This document shows, piece after piece, positions 2,584 through 63,597 of a stretch of 64,000 bases of DNA; the first letter of the stretch is position 1; each line of letters starts with the position of its first letter. Origin of the DNA: Collinsella sp. (GTDB lineage: Bacteria; Actinomycetota; Coriobacteriia; Coriobacteriales; Coriobacteriaceae); contig JAGZUC010000003.1 in NCBI GenBank assembly GCA_018380195.1, positions 55,769-119,768 on the forward strand, written 5' to 3'. A model generated the notes under the pieces. It was given only the letters and a program-made list of their open reading frames with translations, was not told the DNA's origin and did no database searches. Both the position numbers and the translations under genes were made by a program.

Positions 2584-2733
2584 ACAAACATCTCAATCTG
2601 TAACAGGTGGGAGCGGAATCCGGTCCTAGATGTTACAGATCGAGACAAACGGAGGACCCGCCAGACTAACGTCTCAATCTGTAACAACTGGGACCCAAAT
2701 CCTCGTCTAAATGTTACAGATCGAGACGAACGG
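2584..2733. repeat. tandem pair of diverged ~67-70 bp hairpin units
   Basis: Each unit has arms TCTCAATCTGTAACA / TGTTACAGATCGAGAC (15-16 bp inverted repeat) around a diverged ~25 nt loop and ends in AACGG. Unit 1 is ~2584-2652 and unit 2 is ~2667-2733. Confidence 0.8.
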
Positions 2734-2896: not shown

Positions 2897-4354
2897 GTGA
2901 CAGAAACGTTTGATATCGCGATTGTCGGCGCGGGCATCACGGGATGCGTCATCGCGCGACAGCTCGCGAGATTTGACCTTTCCATTTGCGTGGTCGAGGC
3001 GACCAACGACATCGCGCTGGGCGCGTCGAAGGCCAACGGCGGCCTGGTGCACGCCGGCTACGATCCTGCGCCGGGCACGGTAAAGGCGCAGGTCAACGCC
3101 CGTGGTTGCGAGCTATATGGCACATGGGCCCAGGAGCTGGGCTTTCTGTTCTGCCGCACCGGGTCGATGGTGTTGGGCTTTAACGACGAGGACCGCGCGC
3201 AGCTGGAGAAGCTGCGGTGCAACGCCCTTGCCAACGGTGTGCCCGAACTGTCGATTATCGGCCCCGAGCGCATCCACGAGCTGGAGCCGCGCGCGAGTGC
3301 CCAGGTCTCGTGCGCGTTGTGGTGCCCTTCGACCGGTTACGTCGACCCGTTTGAAGTGGCCATCGCTGCACTAGAGAACGCAGTTGCCAACGGCGCGACG
3401 TTTATGCGCTCTGCGCCGGTGGAAGGCATTGAAGTTGCCGGCTCAGATGACGGAGCCGTGCGCTTTACGCTGGCGACCCCCGCTGGCAACGTACGCTGCC
3501 GCTACCTGATCAACGCCGCGGGCAACGGCGCCGCCGACATCTCGCATATGGCGGGCGCCGAGGAGTACCAGATGGTCTGGCGTCAGGGCAACATCGTGGT
3601 GCTGGACAAGGAGCCGCGCACGCTCATGCCGCTCTACCCCGTGCCGACGCCGGTGTCGAAGGGCGTTATCGTGACGGGCACCGTGCACGGCAACACCGTG
3701 ATTACCGCAACCGCCGCTGTGCGCGAGCCGGGCGATACACAGACCTACGCGACCGATATCAACGCGCTCCTGACCGGCGCTCGCAAGCTGGTGCCCGATC
3801 TGGACACGCGTCGCGTGGTGCGCGCATTTGCCGGCGGTCGCCCGGTCATTCAGGGAACGAACGACTTCTTTATTGGACAGTCGGCCGTTGTGCCGGGGCT
3901 TTTCCAGGCGGCGGGCATTCAGTCGCCGGGCGTGGCAAGCGCACCGGCCATTGCCGAGCGCATGGAGCACGTACTGCGCAATGCCGGCGTGGCCCTGCGC
4001 GAACGCGCCGATTGGGATCCAATACGCCGCGCGCCGGACGACTTTGACCGCGCGCCGCTTGCGCGCAAGAAGGAGCTCATTGAGTCCGGCCCTGCATGGG
4101 GGCAGATCGTCTGCCGCTGCGAGACGGTGCCCGAGGCCGAGATTGTTGCCGCGATTCGACGCCGCCCGGGCGCGGTTTCGGTCGAAGGCGTCAAACGCCG
4201 CTGCCGCGCGGGTATGGGCCGCTGCCAGAGTGGCTTTTGCCAGAGCCGCGTGGTGACGATTCTTGCCCGCGAGCTGGGCTGCGACCCCAGCGAGGTGTTG
4301 TTAGAGGATACCGGATCTTGGTTGGTTGAGGGACCGCTGAAGGGGGTGCGCTAG
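2897..4354 (+). CDS. FAD-dependent oxidoreductase, GlpA/L-2-hydroxyglutarate-oxidase-like, with C-terminal BFD-like [2Fe-2S] domain
   Basis: N-terminal GxGxxG FAD motif (IAIVGAGITG). C-terminal Cys cluster CRCE...CRAGMGRCQSGFC. GTG start preceded by GGGAGG. Confidence 0.8.
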   Translation: MTETFDIAIVGAGITGCVIARQLARFDLSICVVEATNDIALGASKANGGLVHAGYDPAPGTVKAQVNARGCELYGTWAQELGFLFCRTGSMVLGFNDEDRAQLEKLRCNALANGVPELSIIGPERIHELEPRASAQVSCALWCPSTGYVDPFEVAIAALENAVANGATFMRSAPVEGIEVAGSDDGAVRFTLATPAGNVRCRYLINAAGNGAADISHMAGAEEYQMVWRQGNIVVLDKEPRTLMPLYPVPTPVSKGVIVTGTVHGNTVITATAAVREPGDTQTYATDINALLTGARKLVPDLDTRRVVRAFAGGRPVIQGTNDFFIGQSAVVPGLFQAAGIQSPGVASAPAIAERMEHVLRNAGVALRERADWDPIRRAPDDFDRAPLARKKELIESGPAWGQIVCRCETVPEAEIVAAIRRRPGAVSVEGVKRRCRAGMGRCQSGFCQSRVVTILARELGCDPSEVLLEDTGSWLVEGPLKGVR

Positions 4355-7366: not shown

Positions 7367-7390
7367 GCACGCCACCAAAGCTCCCCTAGA

Positions 7391-7457
7391 AGTTGCGGTG
7401 AAATAGGGACTGTTCAAGGCTTCTAGCCCATAAAACAGTCCCTATTTCACCGCAACT
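7391..7457. repeat. palindromic element copy 1 (AGTTGCGGTGAAATAGGGACTGTT-loop-AACAGTCCCTATTTCACCGCAACT)
   Basis: Perfect 24 bp stem seen directly. Lies between the convergent M24 peptidase (+) and folC (-) genes. Flanked by CCCCTAGA and GATGAGGGG. Confidence 0.9.
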
Positions 7458-7471
7458 GATGAGGGGATGGG

Positions 7472-19635: not shown

Positions 19636-19728
19636 CTCTCCACTTGTCCAGTACCTTTAAGTGTACCAAACGAGGGGGCTCAGCTCGTGTCGGGACAAAA
19701 TGAACCGTTTTCCTCCGTCGCGTGCGGA

Positions 19729-19764
19729 TCAAAAAAGGCTCCCAGCCAAGATGACTGAGAGCCT
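19729..19764 (-). terminator. intrinsic terminator downstream of gdhA
   Basis: AAGGCTC-N16-GAGCCTT followed by TTTTTTGATCC on the minus strand. Confidence 0.7.
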
Positions 19765-21146: not shown

Positions 21147-21402
21147 GCTTCCTCCAATGATGGGAAACGAAAAGTGTCGGTCGCGGCACCCCATGCGCCG
21201 CGAGCTTTATCGTGTATGGATAATATCGCACTGTTGCGGCAAAGTTTCGCATAAGCCGACGAGCGGATGTTTCGTTTTGATTACGATGCAGGTAGAAGCG
21301 TTTTTGAGTGCCTGACGTGCGAAACCTGTGTTTCAAACCTGTTTCGTCCACGTGTTCCAAACCACCACATTGGGGACAGGCACCTTTGTGGTGGTGTGGT
21401 GG

Positions 21403-21798
21403 CTAGAGGACGAGCTGATGGTAGTCGGCGGGGGTTATGCGGCCTTCGGTGGCAGCGCGGAAGGCGGCGAGGGCGTCGCCCGAGAACGGCATGGCCCAGC
21501 ACAGCCCGCAGCCGGCGGTAATGGAGCCCGGCAAAGGCATAATGCGCCCGGGCACACCGGCGGCAAGGCACAGCTGTTCGCATTCCATCACATCGAAGGT
21601 GCTGTCGAACGACACGATGATTTTGCGTTCATGGTCGAGAGCATCACCGGACGGGCCTTCGCGGTGTGCATCGCGATACGCCGCGGCGGCCGCTTCCTCT
21701 TCCGCAGTATGTCCACAGCCACCGCAACCGCAGGTACAGGGTTCGGACCCGTCGCAAGTGCAAGGTTCTCCCGTGTCGGGACAAATATCGTGAGACAT
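21403..21798 (-). CDS. DUF3343-like protein with Cys-rich N-terminal extension
   Basis: C-terminal half is paralogous to the 49493-49744 product (shared GCGL(C/A)W motif). N-terminal extension reads CPDTGEPCTCDGSEPCTCGCGGCGH. The translation-initiation region TTGGAGTTGCCATG is shared with that paralog. Confidence 0.6.
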   Translation of the reverse strand: MSHDICPDTGEPCTCDGSEPCTCGCGGCGHTAEEEAAAAAYRDAHREGPSGDALDHERKIIVSFDSTFDVMECEQLCLAAGVPGRIMPLPGSITAGCGLCWAMPFSGDALAAFRAATEGRITPADYHQLVL

Positions 21799-21813: not shown

Positions 21814-22446
21814 CTAGGCGAGTAACTCGGCCGCCGCAAACTCCTCGGGCGTATTGACGTTCTCGAAGCAGAGCGTCGAGCCGGCGACCGCGACAATCTG
21901 AGGCTCGTCCAAATACCCGGCATTCACCCGGTCGATCAGGCAGCGGATTCGCTGACGGTCATCGGCGAGCAGCTCTTGGGCAACCGGCGCACACGCGACA
22001 CGGCGCCAGACGGCGCAAAGCGGCTCAATCCCCCGCTCCTCGCGCGGCACGCACACGTCGAGTGCCTCGGCCTCAGCACGATCGGCAAGCGCGCCGATGA
22101 GTTCCGGCGAGACAAACGGCATATCGCAGGCGACGATCGCCACGAGCGGCAATCGGGCCGCGGCCAACGAGCTCGCGATGCCGCGCATGGCACCGGCGGG
22201 ACCGTCGACGTCCATCACCACGCGGGGGCGCAGGCCATCAAACATAAACTCCTCAAGATAGGCAAGCTCGCTGGGACGCGAAGTCGTCACGACCAACTCG
22301 CCGGCAACTGGCGTCAGCCGACCCAGCACGCGCTCGATGAGCGGCTCGCCGCAAAACGCCATGCGCGCCTTATCGCAGCCCATGCGCGACGACAACCCGC
22401 CCGCCTGGACGACACAAGAAAGATCGGCACGTCTTACGGTAGTCAT
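21814..22446 (-). CDS. mobA: molybdenum cofactor guanylyltransferase
   Basis: N-terminal VVQAGGLSSRMG...DKA motif. Start at MTTVRR, 10 nt after GGAGGTG. The track ORF extends 96 codons upstream with no support. Confidence 0.75.
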   Translation of the reverse strand: MTTVRRADLSCVVQAGGLSSRMGCDKARMAFCGEPLIERVLGRLTPVAGELVVTTSRPSELAYLEEFMFDGLRPRVVMDVDGPAGAMRGIASSLAAARLPLVAIVACDMPFVSPELIGALADRAEAEALDVCVPREERGIEPLCAVWRRVACAPVAQELLADDRQRIRCLIDRVNAGYLDEPQIVAVAGSTLCFENVNTPEEFAAAELLA

Positions 22447-22753
22447 ACGACAAAACACCTCCATCGGCATGCTCGAAACCCGATGCACGAAGCTAAATAC
22501 AGCCGCCGAAATAGCGGCGCTACGAAAAGCTCGTGCAAAAACAAAACAGCGCCTTTGCGGCACGCAGCAAGACCGCGAGCACAAAAGCGCTGGTAGCGTA
22601 TGGCGGGAACGTATGTGAATCGAACACATCCAAGACGTTTTGCACGCCTCGCAACGGTTTTGAGGACCGCGGAGCCCACCGGAGCCCATCCGTTCCCAAG
22701 TGCGGCGGTATTTTACCAAACCGACAGGCCCCATCCCAAAAAGACAAGCAAGA

Positions 22754-22819
22754 AGTTGCGGTGGAATAGTTCCTGGTTTGGCGTTAGATGCCGAAAACAG
22801 GAACTATTTCACCGCAACT
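22754..22819. repeat. palindromic element copy 2 (variant stem AGTTGCGGTGGAATAGTTCCTG / CAGGAACTATTTCACCGCAACT)
   Basis: Seen directly. Compensatory changes relative to copy 1 keep the stem paired. Lies just downstream of the selB stop. Confidence 0.85.
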
Positions 22820-22844
22820 GAGAAGGCGGGGGCGGGTGACCGGC

Positions 22845-24812
22845 CTAGCGTAGGGAGCGCAGGCCGCCGGCTTCCTTGTCGAGCACCGTAAAGCGCACGG
22901 CATCCAGGTGTTCCAAAATGCTGATGGCGCGCTTGCGCGACACACCCAGGGCCTCGCGCAGCACGCTCGTGGTGGCAGCGCCACCGGCATCGGCGATGGC
23001 GGCGGCAACAAGCTCGCGCGCATGGGCCTCGGCGGCAGCGGACAGGGCAACGTCGCGCTCGACCTTCACGATCGAGCGGTTGAGCGAAAGCTCGCGCAGG
23101 GCACGCGTCATGGTGTCGCGATCGAGCTGCAGTTGCTCGCCCACCTCGGGCAACGTCGGTGCATCGAGGCCGGCTTCGTCCAGCAAGGCAACGATACGTT
23201 CGCAGGCTTCGCGAACCACGCGTGCCGCCGCGGCGGCCGAATGCGGATCGAATACCTCGGCGCCCTCGGCGGCGCACACACCACGCGAGCAGCCCTCGGC
23301 AATCAGAGCCGCGGCAACGCCTTCATCAGCGGCAGACCACGCAGCATGGGCAACGGCGCCAGGCGTAAAGCCCGTCTCCTTGGGAGCCGCCGTGTGCATG
23401 GCTGACAGGGTCGCCGCCAGTGCATCCATCGCGGCGTCGAGCACCGTGGCGTCCGCCAAGTAGTCCGCATCACCCACGGCAAGCTTGCGAACGGAGCCCT
23501 GCGACACCAACCCGCGCAGTGCGGCATCGACCTCGCCGACACCAAGATCCAAAGCGTCGGTAACATCAACCGCCGTAACCGGCAGCATCTGCAGCGCCAG
23601 CCAAGCGCCCACACCGCCCGCGGTATCGCCGGCCTCAAGCGCTGCAAGCAGCGTGCGCTCCCCCGCCGAAAGCTCGCGCGAGCGGCGGCAGCGCGAAAGC
23701 AGCACGCGCCCGCCGCCGATGAGCATAACGGGCGAATACGACAGCACCACGGCGTGGTCTCCGGCGCGCAGCGGCAGCGGCTCCTCCAGGCGCACCTGCA
23801 CGGTACGGGTCTCGCCCACCGCCATGGGGGCCTCGCCCTCCAAAAGCATGATGCGACCGACATCCTCGGCCGTGCCGGCCATCACATGCACGCGCACACC
23901 CGGCTCGAGCACACGCGGCTTGGCTCCCTCACGGCCCAGGTAGGTGAACGTCATCATAAAGCGTAACGTCTGACCAAAGCGATTCGCCACGCCCAGCAAC
24001 TCGCCGCGGTCAAGCGCCGCGACACCGTCACCAACTAGGTTGAGCGCCACACGCTGACCAGGCAGCGCGCGCGGCGTATCGCCATGCACCTGAATCCCGC
24101 GCACGCGACAGACCGTACGCGACGGCAAAGCCATCAGCTCATCGCCCACCGCAACCGGCGCATCGTGCAGCGTTCCCGTCACGACGGTGCCGGCGCCCTT
24201 GATCGTAAAGCAGCGGTCGATGGGCAGGCGAGGCGAGGCGCCGCTCCGATCGGAACGGTCGCGGCAGGAATCCCAGCAGGTACCAACCTGATCGTCAAGC
24301 GCTGCCAGCAGCGCATCAATCCCCGCGCCGGTCTTAGACGAAACAGGCACGATCGGCGCGTCCGCAAACACGGTACCCGACAAAAAGTCATCGACGTCGA
24401 GCTCGGCAAGCTCGATCATCTCGCTATCGGCCAGGTCGCACATCGTAAGCGCCACCACCATATGCGTGACGCCCAGCAGCTCCAACACGTGCACGTGCTC
24501 GCGCGTCTGCGGCATTACGCCCTCCACGGCAGAGACCACCAGCACGGCAACGTCGACGCCCGTCGCACCCTGCACCATGGCGCGCAAGTAATGTGCGTGA
24601 CCCGGCACGTCGACCAGACCAACGATCTTGCCACTCGGCAGCGCCAGCTCGCCAAAGCCCAGCTCCACGGTCATGCCACGACGGCGCTCAACCTCCAGAC
24701 GGTCGGGGTTTTTACCCGTAAGCGCCTCGATGAGCGCCGACTTACCGTGGTCGACATGACCCGCCGTGCCAACGATAACGGGACACTCCACCAGCGCCTG
24801 AACCTCACTCAT
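22845..24812 (-). CDS. selB: selenocysteine-specific elongation factor
   Basis: GTPase motifs AGHVDHGKS, DVPGH, MCD. Long C-terminal winged-helix region typical of SelB. The start overlaps the selA stop (ATGA). Confidence 0.88.
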   Translation of the reverse strand: MSEVQALVECPVIVGTAGHVDHGKSALIEALTGKNPDRLEVERRRGMTVELGFGELALPSGKIVGLVDVPGHAHYLRAMVQGATGVDVAVLVVSAVEGVMPQTREHVHVLELLGVTHMVVALTMCDLADSEMIELAELDVDDFLSGTVFADAPIVPVSSKTGAGIDALLAALDDQVGTCWDSCRDRSDRSGASPRLPIDRCFTIKGAGTVVTGTLHDAPVAVGDELMALPSRTVCRVRGIQVHGDTPRALPGQRVALNLVGDGVAALDRGELLGVANRFGQTLRFMMTFTYLGREGAKPRVLEPGVRVHVMAGTAEDVGRIMLLEGEAPMAVGETRTVQVRLEEPLPLRAGDHAVVLSYSPVMLIGGGRVLLSRCRRSRELSAGERTLLAALEAGDTAGGVGAWLALQMLPVTAVDVTDALDLGVGEVDAALRGLVSQGSVRKLAVGDADYLADATVLDAAMDALAATLSAMHTAAPKETGFTPGAVAHAAWSAADEGVAAALIAEGCSRGVCAAEGAEVFDPHSAAAAARVVREACERIVALLDEAGLDAPTLPEVGEQLQLDRDTMTRALRELSLNRSIVKVERDVALSAAAEAHARELVAAAIADAGGAATTSVLREALGVSRKRAISILEHLDAVRFTVLDKEAGGLRSLR

Positions 24813-44196: not shown

Positions 44197-44419
44197 GTTT
44201 TAGCAGGTTGGAACTATTCTCGGATAGCTATAAAGGTGAGTGTATTACATGCGTACGCCTCAGAGATTTTTACGCGCTCTCGTTTTGGATGCACTACGCC
44301 TGTATTCGTGTTTATGGTTATCAACTTGAGTGAAATAAAGTAATCGTTATAAGATGCTCAAGTATCGGCACATGCCGCATTTGACCGACTATATTGCACG
44401 CTCATTAAGGGGGCCAGTG

Positions 44420-44743
44420 ATGTCATCGACTCAAAAAAGAGCCATCCTGCAGGTGCGCATTCGCGAGGAAGACAAGCAGCATGCCGAGCATCTCTACGAT
44501 GCCATGGGCACATCGCTCGCCGAGGCTGTCCGCTTATTTGTCGCGCAAAGCATTTTGATGCGCAAGCTCCCCTTTCAGCCGGTCGCCGTGCGCTCAAAGA
44601 ACGGCACCGCCGCCTATGGATCGCTCAAAGCATATGGTGACCCCAATCGCCGCTCCGAAGAGCGCAATGCCTGGATTGAGTACCTTGCCACAGAAAGCGA
44701 CGATTCGATTTTGGGTCCCGAGGAAGTAGATATCCATGAGTAG
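44420..44743 (+). CDS. type II antitoxin, RelB/DinJ family
   Basis: N-terminal ribbon-helix-helix (RAILQVRIREEDKQHAEHLYDAMGTSLAEAVRLFVAQSI) resembling DinJ. AAGGGGG ribosome-binding site 6 nt upstream. 8 nt overlap with the downstream gene. Confidence 0.7.
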   Translation: MSSTQKRAILQVRIREEDKQHAEHLYDAMGTSLAEAVRLFVAQSILMRKLPFQPVAVRSKNGTAAYGSLKAYGDPNRRSEERNAWIEYLATESDDSILGPEEVDIHE

Positions 44744-45191
44744 CACCATCATCGACGAGACCGTCATCCTGCGCTACCTGCTTGACGACGACGAGGTTCT
44801 GTCACCGCGCGCCGCCAAGGTCATCGCCACGCGCACCGCTCGCGTCTACCCCGAAATCATCACGCGCGTCGTGGTCACACTGCGCGACGTCTATAAGGTT
44901 CCCCGCGTTGAGATTACTGCGGCCATGAAGAGGTTGCTCGATGACGTCATGGTCGACGAGCCCACCGTTGTCGCCCTTGCCGTCAAACTCTTTGGCAAGA
45001 CCCATATGGACTTTACCGACTGCCTCCTCGCAGCCCGAACCGCCATCTACAACGATGATGTCGTGAGCTTTGGCAAGCCCATCATCCAAGGCATGATCGA
45101 TTACCGCCACAAGCGCCAAACCGCAGCCGAAGCCCGCAGCCGAAGCACCGACTCCACCATCGACAAGCTCCGCCACCAATCCCGCCACTAA
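44736..45191 (+). CDS. putative PIN-domain toxin (VapC-like)
   Basis: Acidic residues spaced as in PIN domains (IIDETV, YPEI, DFTDCLLAA, NDDVV). Overlaps the antitoxin gene in the usual toxin-antitoxin arrangement. Assignment by pattern only. Confidence 0.5.
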   Translation: MSSTIIDETVILRYLLDDDEVLSPRAAKVIATRTARVYPEIITRVVVTLRDVYKVPRVEITAAMKRLLDDVMVDEPTVVALAVKLFGKTHMDFTDCLLAARTAIYNDDVVSFGKPIIQGMIDYRHKRQTAAEARSRSTDSTIDKLRHQSRH

Positions 45192-45234
45192 CCGACAGAC
45201 AACGGCATCGCCCGCCCCTCAGCCCCATCCCCTC

Positions 45235-45301
45235 CTAAGTTGCGGTGAAATACGGACTGTTTCATGCCTTTAAAGGCCTCAACAGTCCGTATTTCACCGC
45301 A
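45235..45301. repeat. palindromic element copy 3 (stem variant AATACGGACTGTT/AACAGTCCGTATT)
   Basis: Seen directly between the convergent toxin gene and the AbiEi-like gene. Confidence 0.9.
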
Positions 45302-45332
45302 ACTTATTGAAGGTTGGCTGCGAACGATTTCG

Positions 45333-46355
45333 CTATCGGGAGTCGGCGTAGGGTTTTGTTGTCGGAATGCCGTAACCGCGCATCATGGCACCGAACGATT
45401 CTACGTCGTAGGTGTCCGAAAGTTTGAAGTGAATGACGTTGTGGCCCATGGCACGAAGGTTCGCGTCGCGCATGAGGGCCGCTCGATAGGTTTTTGCCGC
45501 CGCTTGCTCTGGATCATCTTGAGCTTCGTCTTCAAACTTACCCAGCCCATGCAGCTCTGCCAGCGTCCATGAGCCGTCTGGCATCTGCCAGCCATAATCT
45601 GCTAGATAATAACCAGCGTTTCCCGGTCGCGTTATCTCAACTTGAAGCTCAGGCGCGGCAACCCCAGCGAGAATCATCGCTGCTCTCGCCTCGGACTCGC
45701 CACCATTGTCTGACCTGCCGTCCATATGCTCAAAAACGTCAAAAGCACGCGCGATGCCATGCAACCCTCGGCAATTTGCCTGCGCATATGCTCGCAGCTC
45801 TTCACGTTCGACATCGTACTCACGGGCCAAGCCATCGACATAGCCCAGCGCATAGCGAAAGGCGCTCGTTCGGGCGATATCAACAACCGTTCGATACGGA
45901 TCCGTCAGCGTAAACAGACCGAGCCGCCACACTTCGCCCGCCCGCCAGCGCTTATATTCAACGAACTCATACGTATCACGCCTTGTAGACCGTGGCAGCA
46001 GCACTTGCACTTTATCCAGAAGCGAATAAGCCGAGCCGATGCCATAGAGCAGCGCTGCCGTCGAACCGCAAAACACAGCATCCGGTTCAACGACCGCAAT
46101 AGCGGATGTCAGCTGAAAGATGCGATCTTCAACCCCAAGATTATTCCAATAGACCGGATCCGCATACACGTGGTTGTAAAGACGAAGCATGAGCTCTTCC
46201 TGCATAAGCTCGCGCGCACGGCGTTCTTCCCAAGGATCAATTGTTATAAGCAGCTGTCCATCTTGATGAATTCCAAGGGCCGAGAATAGCATCCTTGCAT
46301 ATGACTGCGGAAAATGTTTGCCTTTATCGAGCATGGCCAACCCCATAACCATCAC
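45333..46355 (-). CDS. AbiEi-like N-terminal domain / DUF559 (restriction-endonuclease-like) C-terminal domain protein
   Basis: N-terminal pattern S-AALLYG...LLPR..RR...G...T.P.RTVVDIAR and C-terminal Y.ADYGW...G...E.DG..H......D..R...L...G..V.R. Noticeably lower GC than the surrounding DNA. Confidence 0.55.
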   Translation of the reverse strand: MMVMGLAMLDKGKHFPQSYARMLFSALGIHQDGQLLITIDPWEERRARELMQEELMLRLYNHVYADPVYWNNLGVEDRIFQLTSAIAVVEPDAVFCGSTAALLYGIGSAYSLLDKVQVLLPRSTRRDTYEFVEYKRWRAGEVWRLGLFTLTDPYRTVVDIARTSAFRYALGYVDGLAREYDVEREELRAYAQANCRGLHGIARAFDVFEHMDGRSDNGGESEARAAMILAGVAAPELQVEITRPGNAGYYLADYGWQMPDGSWTLAELHGLGKFEDEAQDDPEQAAAKTYRAALMRDANLRAMGHNVIHFKLSDTYDVESFGAMMRGYGIPTTKPYADSR

Positions 46356-46519: not shown

Positions 46520-46586
46520 AGTTGCGGTGAAATACGGACTACATAGGCCATAAAAGCCGAAAAACAGTCCGTATTTCACCGCAACT
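46520..46586. repeat. palindromic element copy 4 (slightly imperfect left arm)
   Basis: Seen directly. Lies between the AbiEi-like gene start and the tRNA genes. Confidence 0.8.
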
Positions 46587-62547: not shown

Positions 62548-63510
62548 ATGCATGCAACTGATTTTGCCCGCACGCTCATCATCGCCAACCCAGCCGCCCA
62601 GTCGGGTGCGGCGCGCGAAGTTGCCGAGCGCCTGCAACGCTTTTTGGATATGACCGCGCGCGCATCCCAGTTTGACCTGGTGCTGACCGAGCGCATGGGA
62701 CACGCCAAGGAGCTGGCCGCACAGGCTCAGGGCTATCGCACCGTTATCGCCCTTGGCGGCGACGGCGTGATTCACGAGGTCGTCAACGGGCTTATGACGC
62801 AAGAGGAGGGCACCCGCCCCGCCCTTGCCGTCCTGCCCGTGGGCTCCGGCAACGATTTTGCCCAAACGCTCGGCATCGACGATTTCTCCGGCAAGGATTT
62901 TGGCGCGCTGCTCACCTGCGAGCTGCAGCGTCAGGACATCGGGCGCATTCGCTCGTGGAGCCCTGCGAGCGGCAGCGGCGAGGCTACCGTTGAGTACTAC
63001 GACCAGACACTTTCGGTCGGCATCGATGCCGCCATCGGCCTGGGCACCACCAAGCTGCGCAAAAAGACGGGCTTGACGGGCGCTCCGCTCTACACTCTCT
63101 CGGGACTTGAGCAGTTTGGCCTACGCTATCGCAACTACCCCATGACCATCAGCTTTGATGGCGCGCCCGCCGAGCGCGTGCGGGCGATTATCATGGCCAT
63201 CCAGCTGGGACCCACCTATGGTTCGGGCTATCGCATCTGTCCCAACGCCGACCCGTGCGACGGCATACTCGACGTCTGCTACGCCTGCGGCCCCGTTCCG
63301 CGCGCGGTCGCGCTTCCCATGTTCCTTTCGGCCAAAGATGGCCACCATACCAAGCTGCCACCGGTTCGCATGCGCCGCTGTCGCCATGCCGAGCTTACCT
63401 TTGAGGAGCCCGACTACCCCATTCAGGCCGACGGCGAGCCCGTTGTCGCCTCGCGCATCGAGGTCGACATCCTCGCCGGCGCCCTCCACGTCTGGCACCC
63501 CACCCGCTAA
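62548..63510 (+). CDS. diacylglycerol kinase catalytic-domain lipid kinase (YegS/DgkA family)
   Basis: DAGKc motif ALGGDG...GSGNDF. Start at MHATDFAR with GGGAG upstream. Confidence 0.75.
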   Translation: MHATDFARTLIIANPAAQSGAAREVAERLQRFLDMTARASQFDLVLTERMGHAKELAAQAQGYRTVIALGGDGVIHEVVNGLMTQEEGTRPALAVLPVGSGNDFAQTLGIDDFSGKDFGALLTCELQRQDIGRIRSWSPASGSGEATVEYYDQTLSVGIDAAIGLGTTKLRKKTGLTGAPLYTLSGLEQFGLRYRNYPMTISFDGAPAERVRAIIMAIQLGPTYGSGYRICPNADPCDGILDVCYACGPVPRAVALPMFLSAKDGHHTKLPPVRMRRCRHAELTFEEPDYPIQADGEPVVASRIEVDILAGALHVWHPTR

Positions 63511-63576
63511 CCCCACCTAAGTTGCGGTGAAATAGGGACTGTTTATGCAGCAAAAGCCGCAAAACAGTCCCTATTT
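63510..63576. repeat. palindromic element copy 5
   Basis: Seen directly between the convergent lipid kinase (+) and arfB (-) genes. Flanked by CCCCACCTA. Confidence 0.9.
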
Positions 63577-63597
63577 CACCGCAACGTATTGAGAAGA

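What the first reader, a model, noticed from the sequence alone, without database searches (positions are those of the whole stretch)
7391..7457. Five dispersed copies of a ~67 bp perfect palindromic element with compensatory stem changes, each at a gene 3' end
Copies lie at 7391-7457, 22754-22819, 45235-45301, 46520-46586 and 63510-63576. The consensus is (CCCCnCCTA)AGTTGCGGTGAAATAGGGACTGTT - 19-23 nt variable loop - AACAGTCCCTATTTCACCGCAACT(TAGG). Copy 2 changes GGGACTG/CAGTCCC to GTTCCTG/CAGGAAC. Copies 3 and 4 change GGG/CCC to CGG/CCG. Both arms change together, so the hairpin rather than the primary sequence is under selection. This is REP/MITE-like behaviour, or a structured RNA. Three copies sit between convergent genes and two follow the 3' ends of selB and the tRNA operon, so they probably act as bidirectional intrinsic terminators that lack U-tracts.
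Basis: seen in the sequence. Interest (0 to 1): 0.6.

Follow-up and report, generated by a model that had tools for sequence, protein, structure and literature searches.

The report
Collinsella 67-nt palindromic intergenic repeat
The window carries five copies of a 67-nucleotide hairpin-forming repeat found only in the gut bacterium Collinsella aerofaciens and its close relatives; it sits just after gene ends and looks like the REP/REPIN-type "junk-or-punctuation" repeats of other bacteria, so it is an undescribed member of a familiar class and not a new kind of system.

Summary
The pattern gives 4 exact matches against 0 expected.

A genome scan hit its 120-locus limit, and nearly every hit was in the Collinsella aerofaciens complex. 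About 155 kb from sister lineages contains none.

- **Anatomy:** 94% of copies are exactly 67 nt. Two inverted 15-nt ends (AGTTGCGGTGRAATA) are almost invariant. The inner arm comes in 2-3 types that are always the same on both sides. The 17-23 nt centre is unrelated between paralogues.
- **Position:** copies are intergenic, usually 10-50 nt after a stop codon. They are enriched between convergent genes and rare between divergent ones.
- **Not shown to be RNA-specific:** there is no U-tract, no G·U-over-A·C bias on the sense strand, and no Rfam match.
- **Mobility and recombination:** sites are filled or empty among close relatives, near-identical neighbouring duplicates exist, and chimeric elements mark places where a gene between two copies was lost.

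Best reading: a REPIN/REP-like, TRIT-like non-autonomous repeat. The enzyme that copies it was not found. A terminator role is plausible but untested. It is a new member of a known kind, of moderate interest.

The parts
7391..7457 (.). Copy 1, GGGAC arm type. 24-bp perfect arms with a 19-nt centre containing a GGCT/AGCC mini-stem. An optional outer C-run/G-run (CCCC at 7384-7387, GGGG at 7463-7466) extends the fold. It is the only hairpin between the convergent M24 peptidase (ends 7366) and Mur-ligase-like gene (ends 7472).
   Evidence: RNA fold -59/-61 kcal/mol, z -10/-11. DNA fold -30.1 kcal/mol.
22754..22819 (.). Copy 2, GTTCC arm type, 66 nt, with G·T at pair 11/57. It lies between the selB stop (22845, - strand) and tRNA-Sec (22697-22601, - strand). 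A promoter-like site at 22739-22710 lies between the element and the tRNA.
45238..45304 (.). Copy 3, CGGAC arm type. With the flanking TA the arms are 26 bp and perfect (45236-45306). It lies between a PIN-like ORF (ends 45191, +) and a 340-aa orphan ORF (ends 45333, -), which converge.
46520..46586 (.). Copy 4, CGGAC arm type, with 21-bp perfect arms and a 25-nt centre. It is 96 nt downstream of tRNA-Gly (46683, - strand) and 164 nt upstream of the start of the 340-aa ORF (46355, - strand). Together with copy 3 it brackets that single gene.
63520..63586 (.). Copy 5, GGGAC arm type, with a last-base mismatch (CAACG). It lies between the convergent DAGK/YegS-like gene (ends 63510) and RF-1-domain gene (ends 63598). 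The element plus its CCCCACCTA flank fills the whole intergenic gap.
   Evidence: Orthologous copy in L130.

Best explanation
The five copies belong to a lineage-specific family of non-autonomous palindromic intergenic repeats of the Collinsella aerofaciens complex. I call the element E. In anatomy and behaviour it matches REP/REPIN elements of Proteobacteria and the TRIT motif of mycobacteria.

**What is shown**
- E is 67 nt long.
- Two inverted, nearly invariant 15-nt ends (AGTTGCGGTGRAATA) are held at a fixed distance.
- A 7-10 nt inner arm comes in 2-3 types that always match on both sides.
- The centre is conserved in length and in an S-rich / W-rich / S-rich composition, but not in sequence.
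- Either strand folds into a hairpin of about 25 bp.
- Copies lodge in the small safe zone just after stop codons and avoid promoter-bearing divergent spacers.
- The family has been gained, duplicated locally and partly deleted during diversification of the complex.
- Pairs of copies recombine and remove the gene between them.

**What is inferred**
- New copies are made by a trans-acting, sequence-specific enzyme that recognises the invariant ends in a folded single-stranded (hairpin) form, as RAYT does for REPINs. That enzyme was not identified.
- The invariant ends persist because only intact copies are recognised, and/or because the host has come to use them.
- Once in place, every transcript that reads into E acquires a very stable 3' hairpin (-39 to -62 kcal/mol as RNA). 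This probably blocks 3'-to-5' exonucleases, makes a long double-stranded RNA stem, and may impede RNA polymerase in both directions.
- This transcript-end role would be a secondary effect. It is probably not the reason the sequence is conserved.
For: **Family and range**
- The genome scan hit its 120-locus limit, and almost every hit was in Collinsella aerofaciens-type genomes, including ATCC 25986.
- There are 145 copies in 943 kb, and 136 of them are exactly 67 nt.
- No copy was found in 155 kb from sister lineages.
- The arm oligomers are the most abundant 12-16-mers in the window.

**Anatomy**
- Ends invariant, inner arm in homotypic types, centre variable.
- The description of REPINs matches point for point: invariant 16-mers as inverted repeats at a fixed distance, a less conserved spacer whose length and hairpin capacity matter, compensatory changes, and asymmetric excision ends (PMC3116915).

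**Position**
- 23 convergent, 34 tandem and 2 divergent site clusters.
- Median distances from the upstream stop codon are about 20-46 nt, depending on context class, over individual copies; the median over site clusters is 48 nt.

**Duplication**
- L079 4725 and 5912 are identical from -2 to +17 with unrelated flanks beyond.
- L114 4086 and 5612 are inverted near-identical copies.

**Filled and empty sites among close relatives**
- L040 E2 against L047: the insertion is 13 nt plus 67 nt, with a precise right boundary.
- L109 against L071, L105 and L004.
- L072 against the window and L088.

**Decay**
- Solo-arm remnants at L019 3476-3511 and L056 125-179.

**Recombination**
- L040 has E1-gene-E2. 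L043 and L032 have a single chimeric E, with different crossover points.

**Nothing specific to RNA**
- G·U 32 against A·C 47 on the sense strand; pair 11/57 is paired in only about half the copies.
- No Rfam family matched.
- The fold is strong as DNA too (-25 to -33 kcal/mol, z -11 to -13).
Against: - No mobilising enzyme was found. E. coli RayT finds nothing by tblastn in 943 kb of Collinsella DNA. This is only a sample of many genomes, not one whole genome.
- The arms are not themselves small palindromes with a GTAG head, as classical REPs are.
- There is no consistent target-site duplication, and no full-length element with these ends was seen.
- None of the filled/empty comparisons is perfectly clean. 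9-35 nt next to the element also differ.
- Most paralogues have unrelated centres, so recent copying is rare. The near-absence of half-decayed copies fits host-level purifying selection as well as it fits recognition by a transposase.
- In L124, a sister lineage, the site of copy 1 holds two canonical terminators. This fits E standing in for a terminator.
- The loci were chosen by exact matches to the ends, which inflates the apparent conservation of the ends. The five window copies are unbiased and still match the 15-nt end consensus at 149 of 150 end positions.
Confidence: 0.62

Rival explanations
1. E is a host-selected transcript-end element. It would be a factor-assisted bidirectional terminator and/or an mRNA-stabilising 3' hairpin whose conserved double-stranded stem is read by a specific protein, as proposed for mycobacterial TRIT. 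Mobility would explain only how it first spread.
For: - Strong bias to positions just after stop codons and to convergent gene pairs.
- For copies 1, 3 and 5, E is the only hairpin between the two genes.
- In sister lineage L124 the site of copy 1 holds two canonical terminators instead.
- Between selB and tRNA-Sec the tRNA has its own promoter-like site just after E.
- The ends are near-invariant and few copies are half-decayed.
- TRIT is a precedent: 147 palindromic, bidirectional, stop-codon-proximal copies restricted to one actinobacterial genus (PMC3152330).
- A second Collinsella hairpin repeat family does carry A/T tracts.
Against: - No U-tract.
- Purified actinobacterial RNA polymerase does not terminate at hairpins without a U-tract (PMC3993855).
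- No G·U-over-A·C bias on the sense strand.
- Some copies lie directly after a canonical terminator, and a few lie in divergent spacers or 18-22 nt before a start codon (L079, L122).
- Gene ends with E carry canonical-terminator-like motifs as often as ends without E, once masking is matched.
- No expression data were available.
Confidence: 0.22
2. E is a double-stranded DNA binding site for a dimeric or tetrameric protein, such as a nucleoid-organising or roadblock factor. The two 15-bp half-sites would be held 52 bp (five helical turns) apart, and hairpin formation would be irrelevant.
For: - Length is fixed at 67 nt in 94% of copies while the centre sequence drifts.
- Position 11 (R) and its partner position 57 (Y) vary independently, as expected for two independently read half-sites.
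- There is no strand-specific wobble bias.
Against: - The inner-arm types GGGAC, GTTCC and CGGAC are always the same on both sides, and rare end variants (ACTTGCGGTGATATA in L072, GATATA in L098) change on both sides together. A protein reading half-sites does not require this.
- Half-sites are essentially never found alone: GTTGCGGTG occurs 151 times in 943 kb, against about 148 elements.
- Local duplication and insertion polymorphism point to a copied unit.
Confidence: 0.07
3. E is an attC-like recombination site, and single accessory genes bounded by E are cassettes moved by a site-specific recombinase.
For: - Gene-sized presence/absence differences lie exactly at E in several locus sets: L040 against L032/L043, L081/L114 against L096, L118/L045 against L084/L085, and L098 against L069.
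- The bounded genes are accessory types (HipA-like, DUF4143 ATPases, XRE-type, GntR) with 52-56% GC against 62% for the window.
- In the window, copies 3 and 4 bracket one orphan gene.
Against: - Crossover points differ between events, as expected for homology-driven recombination and not for site-specific recombination.
- Several junctions lie outside E.
- The same gene was never seen in two contexts.
- Copies are scattered among core genes, not arrayed.
- The end motif order (GTT...AAC) is the reverse of attC R''/R'.
- No integrase was seen.
- The number of loci with two copies is about what random placement predicts (my own estimate from copy density; no test was run).
Confidence: 0.05
4. 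E encodes a small structured RNA gene with its own function.
For: A very stable fold on both strands.
Against: - No Rfam family at gathering score; only sub-threshold microRNA-hairpin look-alikes.
- A perfect long duplex with no conserved unpaired nucleotides.
- No associated promoter.
- No strand asymmetry.
Confidence: 0.03

Closest known systems
REPINs / REP sequences with RAYT transposases (Pseudomonas, Enterobacteria; Bertels & Rainey 2011, PMC3116915)
   Same: Both are extragenic. Both have two invariant end blocks of about 15-16 nt as inverted repeats at a fixed distance. Both have a less conserved spacer whose length and hairpin capacity are kept, and changes that occur on both sides. 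The end oligomers are the most abundant in the sequence. Copied and excised units have asymmetric ends. Both persist within a lineage.
   Different: Each arm of E is not itself a small palindromic REP, and there is no GTAG-type head. E is shorter overall (67 nt; first-base to first-base distance 52 against 71). The host is an actinobacterium. No RAYT homologue was found in the DNA sampled.
TRIT, the 'tuberculosis Rho-independent terminator' motif of Mycobacterium (Gardner et al. 2011, PMC3152330)
   Same: Both occur in an actinobacterial host. Both are a sequence-conserved palindromic hairpin in about 10^2 copies, bidirectional by symmetry, tightly linked to stop codons, restricted to one genus or lineage, and without a canonical U-tract. 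The authors likewise inferred an unknown factor from the sequence conservation.
   Different: No sequence relationship was tested or seen. TRIT mostly overlaps the stop codon (around -8), whereas E usually starts 10-50 nt after it. Insertion polymorphism and recombination are documented here for E.
Correia elements / MITEs of Neisseria and other TA-targeting MITEs
   Same: Both are short non-autonomous repeats with terminal inverted repeats of about 25 bp. TA is frequent at both borders. Both lie at gene ends and form long RNA duplexes.
   Different: TA/TA flanks occur in only 18 of 144 copies, and there is no consistent duplication. No parent insertion sequence was found. E is much shorter, and its whole length is one hairpin.
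Canonical bidirectional intrinsic terminators
   Same: Both are a hairpin between convergent genes that works identically on both strands.
   Different: E has no A-tract or U-tract, a stem of about 25 bp instead of 5-12 bp, and a conserved primary sequence.

Membership tests
REPIN / REP-RAYT system | Short extragenic repeat present in many copies whose end oligomers are among the most abundant in the genome | tested here: met
   Five copies in 64 kb, and the arm 12-16-mers are the top oligomers in the window. There are 145 copies in 943 kb of related DNA. All are intergenic apart from ORF-calling artefacts.
REPIN / REP-RAYT system | Two highly conserved inverted end blocks separated by a less conserved spacer of fixed length, the whole forming a hairpin | tested here: met
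   compared with the description in PMC3116915.
REPIN / REP-RAYT system | Each end is itself a REP: a 20-40 nt imperfect palindrome with a conserved GTAG-type head | tested here: not met
   The arm AGTTGCGGTGAAATAGGGACTG has no internal palindrome and no GTAG. Half-sites never occur as singlets.
REPIN / REP-RAYT system | A single-copy RAYT (Y1 transposase) gene in the same genome, typically flanked by the repeats | tested here: inconclusive
   tblastn of E. coli RayT against 943 kb of Collinsella loci plus the window gave a best E-value of 1.2. Genes bracketed by two copies are a GntR regulator, ATPases, a HipA-like protein and similar, not transposases. No whole genome could be searched.
MITE (derivative of an insertion sequence) | Terminal inverted repeats | tested here: met
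   The 15-nt invariant ends are inverted, and complementarity extends over 21-27 bp of arm.
MITE (derivative of an insertion sequence) | Target-site duplication of fixed length | tested here: not met
   TA/TA flanks in 18 of 144 copies. Among the other 126, 15 have direct and 1 has inverted dinucleotide repeats. Three- or four-nucleotide repeats are at chance level.
MITE (derivative of an insertion sequence) | A full-length element with the same ends and a transposase gene | tested here: inconclusive
   Only two solo arms were found in 943 kb, and both are deletion remnants. Whole genomes were not searchable.
MITE (derivative of an insertion sequence) | Insertion polymorphism between related genomes | tested here: met
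   Three filled/empty sites. All carry 9-35 nt of extra difference beside the element.
TRIT-like non-canonical terminator motif | Sequence-conserved palindromic hairpin concentrated at annotated gene termini, restricted to one lineage | tested here: met
   compared with PMC3152330.
TRIT-like non-canonical terminator motif | Transcripts actually end there | not testable with these tools
   No transcriptome or 3'-end data were available. In vitro work on mycobacterial polymerase argues that a U-tract is required (PMC3993855).
Canonical intrinsic terminator | GC-rich hairpin followed immediately by a U-tract | tested here: not met
   The right flank is G-rich and the left flank C-rich. TTTT occurs within 15 nt in 18 of 134 copies. 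None of the five copies is called by the terminator scan.
Integron attC site | R''(RYYYAAC)...R'(GTTRRRY) core sites in that order, arrays of same-orientation cassettes, and a neighbouring intI gene | tested here: not met
   The ends read GTTGCGG...CCGCAAC, which is the reverse order, and the internal bases do not fit. Copies are scattered over 56 kb among core genes.
Any Rfam RNA family | Match at the family's gathering score | tested here: not met
   Only tRNAs pass in the window. At E-value thresholds the element matches only microRNA-precursor models, far below their cut-offs.

The most novel reading that the evidence does not exclude
E may be the actinobacterial counterpart of a REPIN population: a vertically inherited replicator kept by a single-copy enzyme that is not a RAYT and has not been recognised. 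On this reading its copies have been co-opted in two ways. They would act as sequence-specific, factor-read transcript-end signals without U-tracts. They would also act as portable homology that lets single accessory genes be lost or gained between neighbouring copies. A new hairpin-recognising enzyme or termination factor would then be waiting to be found by phylogenetic profiling: present in the C. aerofaciens complex, absent in the L124 and L131 lineages.
Probability: 0.15. Interest if true: 0.65.

Novelty: new member of a known kind. Interest (0 to 1): 0.36.

Why it matters
Collinsella aerofaciens is one of the most abundant actinobacteria of the human gut, and GTDB splits it into very many species-level groups (recalled, not checked here).

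- **Strain typing and assembly:** a repeat of roughly 60-180 copies per genome (extrapolated from the sampled density) with invariant ends is a practical marker. It is also a likely cause of metagenome assembly breaks.
- **Accessory-genome turnover:** the data here show it is a substrate for small gene deletions.
- **Wider biology:** it extends the REPIN/TRIT type of element to the Coriobacteriia. It also poses the question left open for TRIT: what reads the conserved sequence?

If the hairpin marks transcript ends without a U-tract, it would bear on how termination works in actinobacteria that have few canonical terminators.

Tried and rejected
1. **Collapsed target site.** A 10-bp palindrome GTTGCGCAAC beside L040 E2 looked like an empty or collapsed site. 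It is not over-represented: 4 in 943 kb and 0 in the window. Dropped.
2. **Outer flanks as a basal stem.** The C-run on the left and G-run on the right looked like a covarying stem. Pairing of a copy's own flanks is no better than pairing with another copy's flanks, and the two runs occur independently (Fisher p = 0.86). They are an optional outer motif (about CCCATCCCCTCMTA) on roughly a third of sides, regardless of the neighbouring gene's orientation.
3. **Apical mini-stem.** It folds better than shuffles. After collapsing orthologues it is not significantly better than chimeras of different copies (p = 0.14). The effect is mostly the S-rich / W-rich / S-rich composition.
4. **E excludes canonical terminators.** A first test gave 0 of 124 against 74 of 591. 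This was an artefact of masking 67 nt in one class only. With matched masking the frequencies are similar.
5. **Copies 3 and 4 as a duplicated pair.** Their centres are no more alike than random pairs (77th percentile).
6. **RAYT search.** Nothing found.
7. **Phage carriage.** The two IMG/VR hits are stretches collinear with the Collinsella chromosome.
8. **Source genome.** Exact look-up of two window proteins found nothing, probably because the start codons I chose were wrong.
9. **Same cassette in two contexts.** None found.
10. **Literature.** Three searches for a repeat of this kind in Collinsella or Coriobacteriia found nothing relevant.

Full report
**1. Observation**

Reading the five stated places shows the same element each time. 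The pattern AGTTGCGGTG-N30-60-CACCGCAACT matches four times, against none in 100 shuffles. The fifth copy differs only in its last base.

The correct coordinates are 7391-7457, 22754-22819, 45238-45304, 46520-46586 and 63520-63586.

The arms are 21-27 bp long, 92-100% complementary, and 14-25 nt apart. The arm oligomers are the most frequent 12-16-mers in the window.

The gene context is also as stated:
- Copies 1, 3 and 5 lie between convergent ORFs.
- Copy 2 lies between the selB stop and tRNA-Sec.
- Copy 4 lies after the tRNA-Pro/tRNA-Gly pair.

**2. The family**

Almost all are from Collinsella aerofaciens-type genomes and MAGs, including the type strain ATCC 25986. One hit is labelled Alloprevotella and is probably mis-binned.

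These loci plus the window (943 kb) hold 145-150 copies. Of 145, 136 are exactly 67 nt; the others are 65, 66 or 68 nt. The position-by-position profile shows:
- Positions 1-15 and 53-67 are invariant, except R at position 11 and Y at position 57.
- Positions 16-22 and 46-52 occur in a few types.
- The centre has no conserved sequence, but keeps its length and an S-rich / W-rich / S-rich composition.

Conservation of the ends in the loci is partly forced by how they were found. The five window copies were not chosen that way, and they still match the 15-nt end consensus at 149 of 150 end positions.

Extrapolating from 1 copy per 13 kb in the window and 1 extra copy per 38 kb in the loci gives roughly 60-180 copies per 2.4-Mb genome. 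No whole genome was available to count.

**3. Taxonomic range**

I fetched contigs encoding orthologues of two flanking proteins at decreasing identity.
- A contig whose DAGK-like protein is 84% identical has the element at the site of copy 5. There it fills the entire 85-nt gap between the two stop codons (L130).
- Contigs at 82-66% identity (M24 peptidase; L124-L129) and at 78% and 63% (DAGK; L131, L132) total 155 kb. They have no copy, even at a permissive threshold. At the density seen in the complex, 4-12 copies would be expected.

In L124 the site of copy 1 holds two ordinary hairpin-plus-T-run terminators, one for each convergent gene.

The sister lineages have palindromic repeat families of their own. 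One of these, AAAACCACCACA...TGTGGTGGTTTT, also occurs in the window at 21357-21399 and about ten more times in the C. aerofaciens-complex loci. Dispersed hairpin repeats at gene ends therefore seem to be a habit of this genus, and E is the family of the aerofaciens complex.

**4. Position**

I used a simple gene caller based on third-codon-position GC, checked against Pfam for the window genes.
- Of 121 classifiable copies, 50 are convergent, 66 tandem and 5 divergent.
- After collapsing orthologues into 64 site clusters, 23 are convergent, 34 tandem and 2 divergent. A further 5 apparent 'inside a gene' cases are mostly artefacts of over-extended ORF starts.
- Background spacers are 16% convergent, 70% tandem and 13% divergent.
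- In tandem spacers the element lies close to the upstream stop (medians 36-46 nt) and far from the next start (150-227 nt).

**5. Structure, and whether it is DNA or RNA**

Either strand folds into a stem of about 25 bp with a small apical stem-loop.
- As RNA: -39 to -62 kcal/mol with flanks, z -8 to -13.
- As DNA: -25 to -33 kcal/mol, z -11 to -13.

On 59 non-redundant copies, 91.5% of stem cells are paired. Ten pairs change on both sides, and the covariation score is 0.202 against 0.102 in shuffles (0 of 500 reach it).

The double changes come mainly from three adjacent pairs that separate the GGGAC and GTTCC types. The remainder come from C/G at pair 16/52 and from rare end variants such as ACTTGCGGTGATATA...TATATCACCGCAAGT in L072. 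Palindromy is therefore kept across subfamilies, but the number of independent compensations is small.

Pair 11/57 is A-U, G-C, G·U or A·C in proportions close to independence.

For copies with a single upstream gene, I oriented the element with that gene. G·U occurs 32 times and A·C 47 times. Selection on a sense-strand RNA hairpin would favour G·U, and that is not seen.

The apical stem folds better than shuffles, but not significantly better than chimeras of different copies. The outer C-run and G-run do not covary.

No Rfam family matches.

In sum, complementarity of the arms matters and the primary sequence of the ends matters. Nothing singles out RNA as the level at which selection acts.

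**6. Evidence of copying, loss and recombination**

(a) Near-identical neighbours with unrelated flanks:
- L079 4725 and 5912 are 1.2 kb apart in direct orientation. They are identical from 2 nt before the element to 17 nt after it.
- L114 4086 and 5612 are inverted relative to each other.
- A few other neighbouring pairs have unusually similar centres.

(b) Filled and empty sites among close relatives:
- Compared with L047, L040 has an extra 13 nt plus the 67-nt element, ending exactly at the element's right end.
- L109 has about 35 nt plus the element, compared with L071.
- L072 has the element where the window (about 19701-19733) and L088 do not.
- None is perfectly clean. In two of the three comparisons (L040, L109), as in the L079 duplicate pair, the extra sequence lies on one side only; in L072 both flanks differ. 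The excised REPIN units described by Bertels and Rainey were also asymmetric.

(c) Remnants with one arm deleted: L019 and L056.

(d) Recombination:
- L047 has left flank - E1 - gene - right flank.
- L040 has left flank - E1 - gene - E2 - right flank.
- L043 and L032 have left flank - E - right flank, and the single E is a chimera of E1 and E2.
- The junction is in the left inner arm in L043 and at the right edge of the centre in L032, which is 66 nt long.

That amounts to two independent losses of the gene by recombination between two copies. Similar one-copy against two-copy relations occur at three other sites. The genes involved are accessory types of lower GC.

I found no gene in two different E-bounded contexts. 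The number of two-copy loci is about what random placement predicts; this is my own estimate from copy density, not a tested result. I therefore do not read this as a cassette system.

**7. Terminator question**

None of the five copies has a T-run, and the terminator scan does not call any of them. Only 18 of 134 copies have TTTT within 15 nt.

Canonical terminator-like motifs are rare at all gene ends in these genomes. Once the comparison is made fairly, they are neither depleted nor enriched at ends that carry E (the apparent exclusion was an artefact). Some copies lie just after a strong canonical terminator (L017, L025, L072).

Several observations nonetheless fit a punctuation role:
- For copies 1, 3 and 5, E is the only hairpin between the genes.
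- The L124 comparison shows canonical terminators at the site of copy 1.
- tRNA-Sec has its own promoter-like site immediately after copy 2.

Published in vitro work on mycobacterial RNA polymerase found no termination at hairpins lacking U-tracts, with or without NusA and NusG (PMC3993855). If E stops transcription, an extra factor would probably be needed. The authors of TRIT reached the same inference for that motif (PMC3152330).

**8. Comparison with known systems**

The anatomy matches REPINs closely and the behaviour matches TRIT.

E is not a classical REP: the arms are not small palindromes and there is no GTAG head. No RAYT was found in the sample, and whole genomes could not be searched.

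E fails the MITE criterion of a fixed target-site duplication, and no parent element was seen. It also fails the definitions of attC and of a canonical terminator.

Three literature searches found no description of such a repeat in Collinsella or Coriobacteriia.

**9. Verdict**

It overstates the compensatory evidence and leaves the terminator claim unproven.

The most likely account is a lineage-specific REPIN/TRIT-like non-autonomous repeat:
- Its invariant ends are read by an unidentified factor.
- It lodges after stop codons.
- It gives transcripts a strong 3' hairpin.
- It serves as portable homology for small deletions.

It is a new member of a known kind, and of moderate interest.

Noticed in passing
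window 21357-21399: One copy of a second dispersed hairpin family, AAACCACCACA-loop-TGTGGTGGT, lies 4 nt after the stop of a small - strand ORF (21403-21798). About ten further copies (AAAACCACCACAAAGG...CCTTTGTGGTGGTTTT, with A/T tracts like a bidirectional terminator) occur in the C. aerofaciens-complex loci. A variant occurs three times in 21 kb of sister lineage L131.
   Followed up: partly
window 2591-2728: Two tandem palindromic units of about 56 nt (TCTCAATCTGTAACA...TGTTACAGATCGAGA), 80 nt apart start to start, lie in the spacer between divergent genes (2059-2535 on the - strand and 2897-4354 on the + strand). They may be a paired operator or another small repeat.
   Followed up: no
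L131 15410-15485, 16127-16204 and 11022-11258: This sister lineage lacks E but has its own palindromic family, with 30-nt arms containing GGGGACWG and a 16-nt spacer. It also has a 60-nt tandem repeat at the site orthologous to window copy 5.
   Followed up: partly
L124 11144-11243: At the site orthologous to window copy 1, a sister lineage has two canonical terminators, one per convergent gene: CGGCCCGGCGAA...TTCGCCGGGCCG plus TTTT, and GGGGACAGTCCCC plus TTTTT on the - strand.
   Followed up: yes
window 44354-46355: A RelB-type antitoxin (44354-44743) and a weak PIN-like ORF (44736-45191) are followed by a 340-aa ORF (45333-46355, - strand) with no Pfam or NCBIfam match. That ORF is bracketed by element copies 3 and 4. 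Its orthologues in L003 and L013 are only 79-81% identical in DNA, while the flanks are more similar.
   Followed up: partly
window 22601-24812: A selenium-related cluster reads selB, then the element, then a promoter-like site (22739-22710), then tRNA-Sec. A MobA-like gene (ORF called 21814-22734; its 5' extension overlaps the tRNA) and a small cysteine-rich ORF (21403-21798) lie downstream.
   Followed up: partly
window about 19701-19733: This is an empty site relative to L072 1305-1371, which carries an end-variant element (ACTTGCGGTGATATA). It lies about 20 nt after a canonical terminator (GGCTC.CAG...CTGGGAGCC plus TTTTTT). The empty sequence CCGCACGCGACGGAGG weakly resembles the element's right end and flank, so it may be a remnant.
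   Followed up: partly
L040 683-709: The 268-aa ORF between the two element copies ends inside copy E1, so the element supplies its last codons and stop. The arms carry TGA and TAG in two of the three reading frames on either strand.
   Followed up: no
L121, L122 (IMG/VR contigs): The only two 'viral' contigs with the element are 92-97% identical and collinear with many Collinsella chromosomal loci over as much as 7.4 kb. The element lies in host DNA, not in phage DNA.
   Followed up: yes
L059: A contig filed under Alloprevotella sp. carries a typical element, and its flank matches Collinsella locus L058. The contig is probably mis-binned.
   Followed up: partly
L081 1408-2793, L097 379-1731, L118 1275-2588: Genes bracketed by two element copies, and absent from relatives, include a HipA-like kinase toxin and two different DUF4143-type ATPases. 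Their GC is 52-56%, against 62% for the window.
   Followed up: partly
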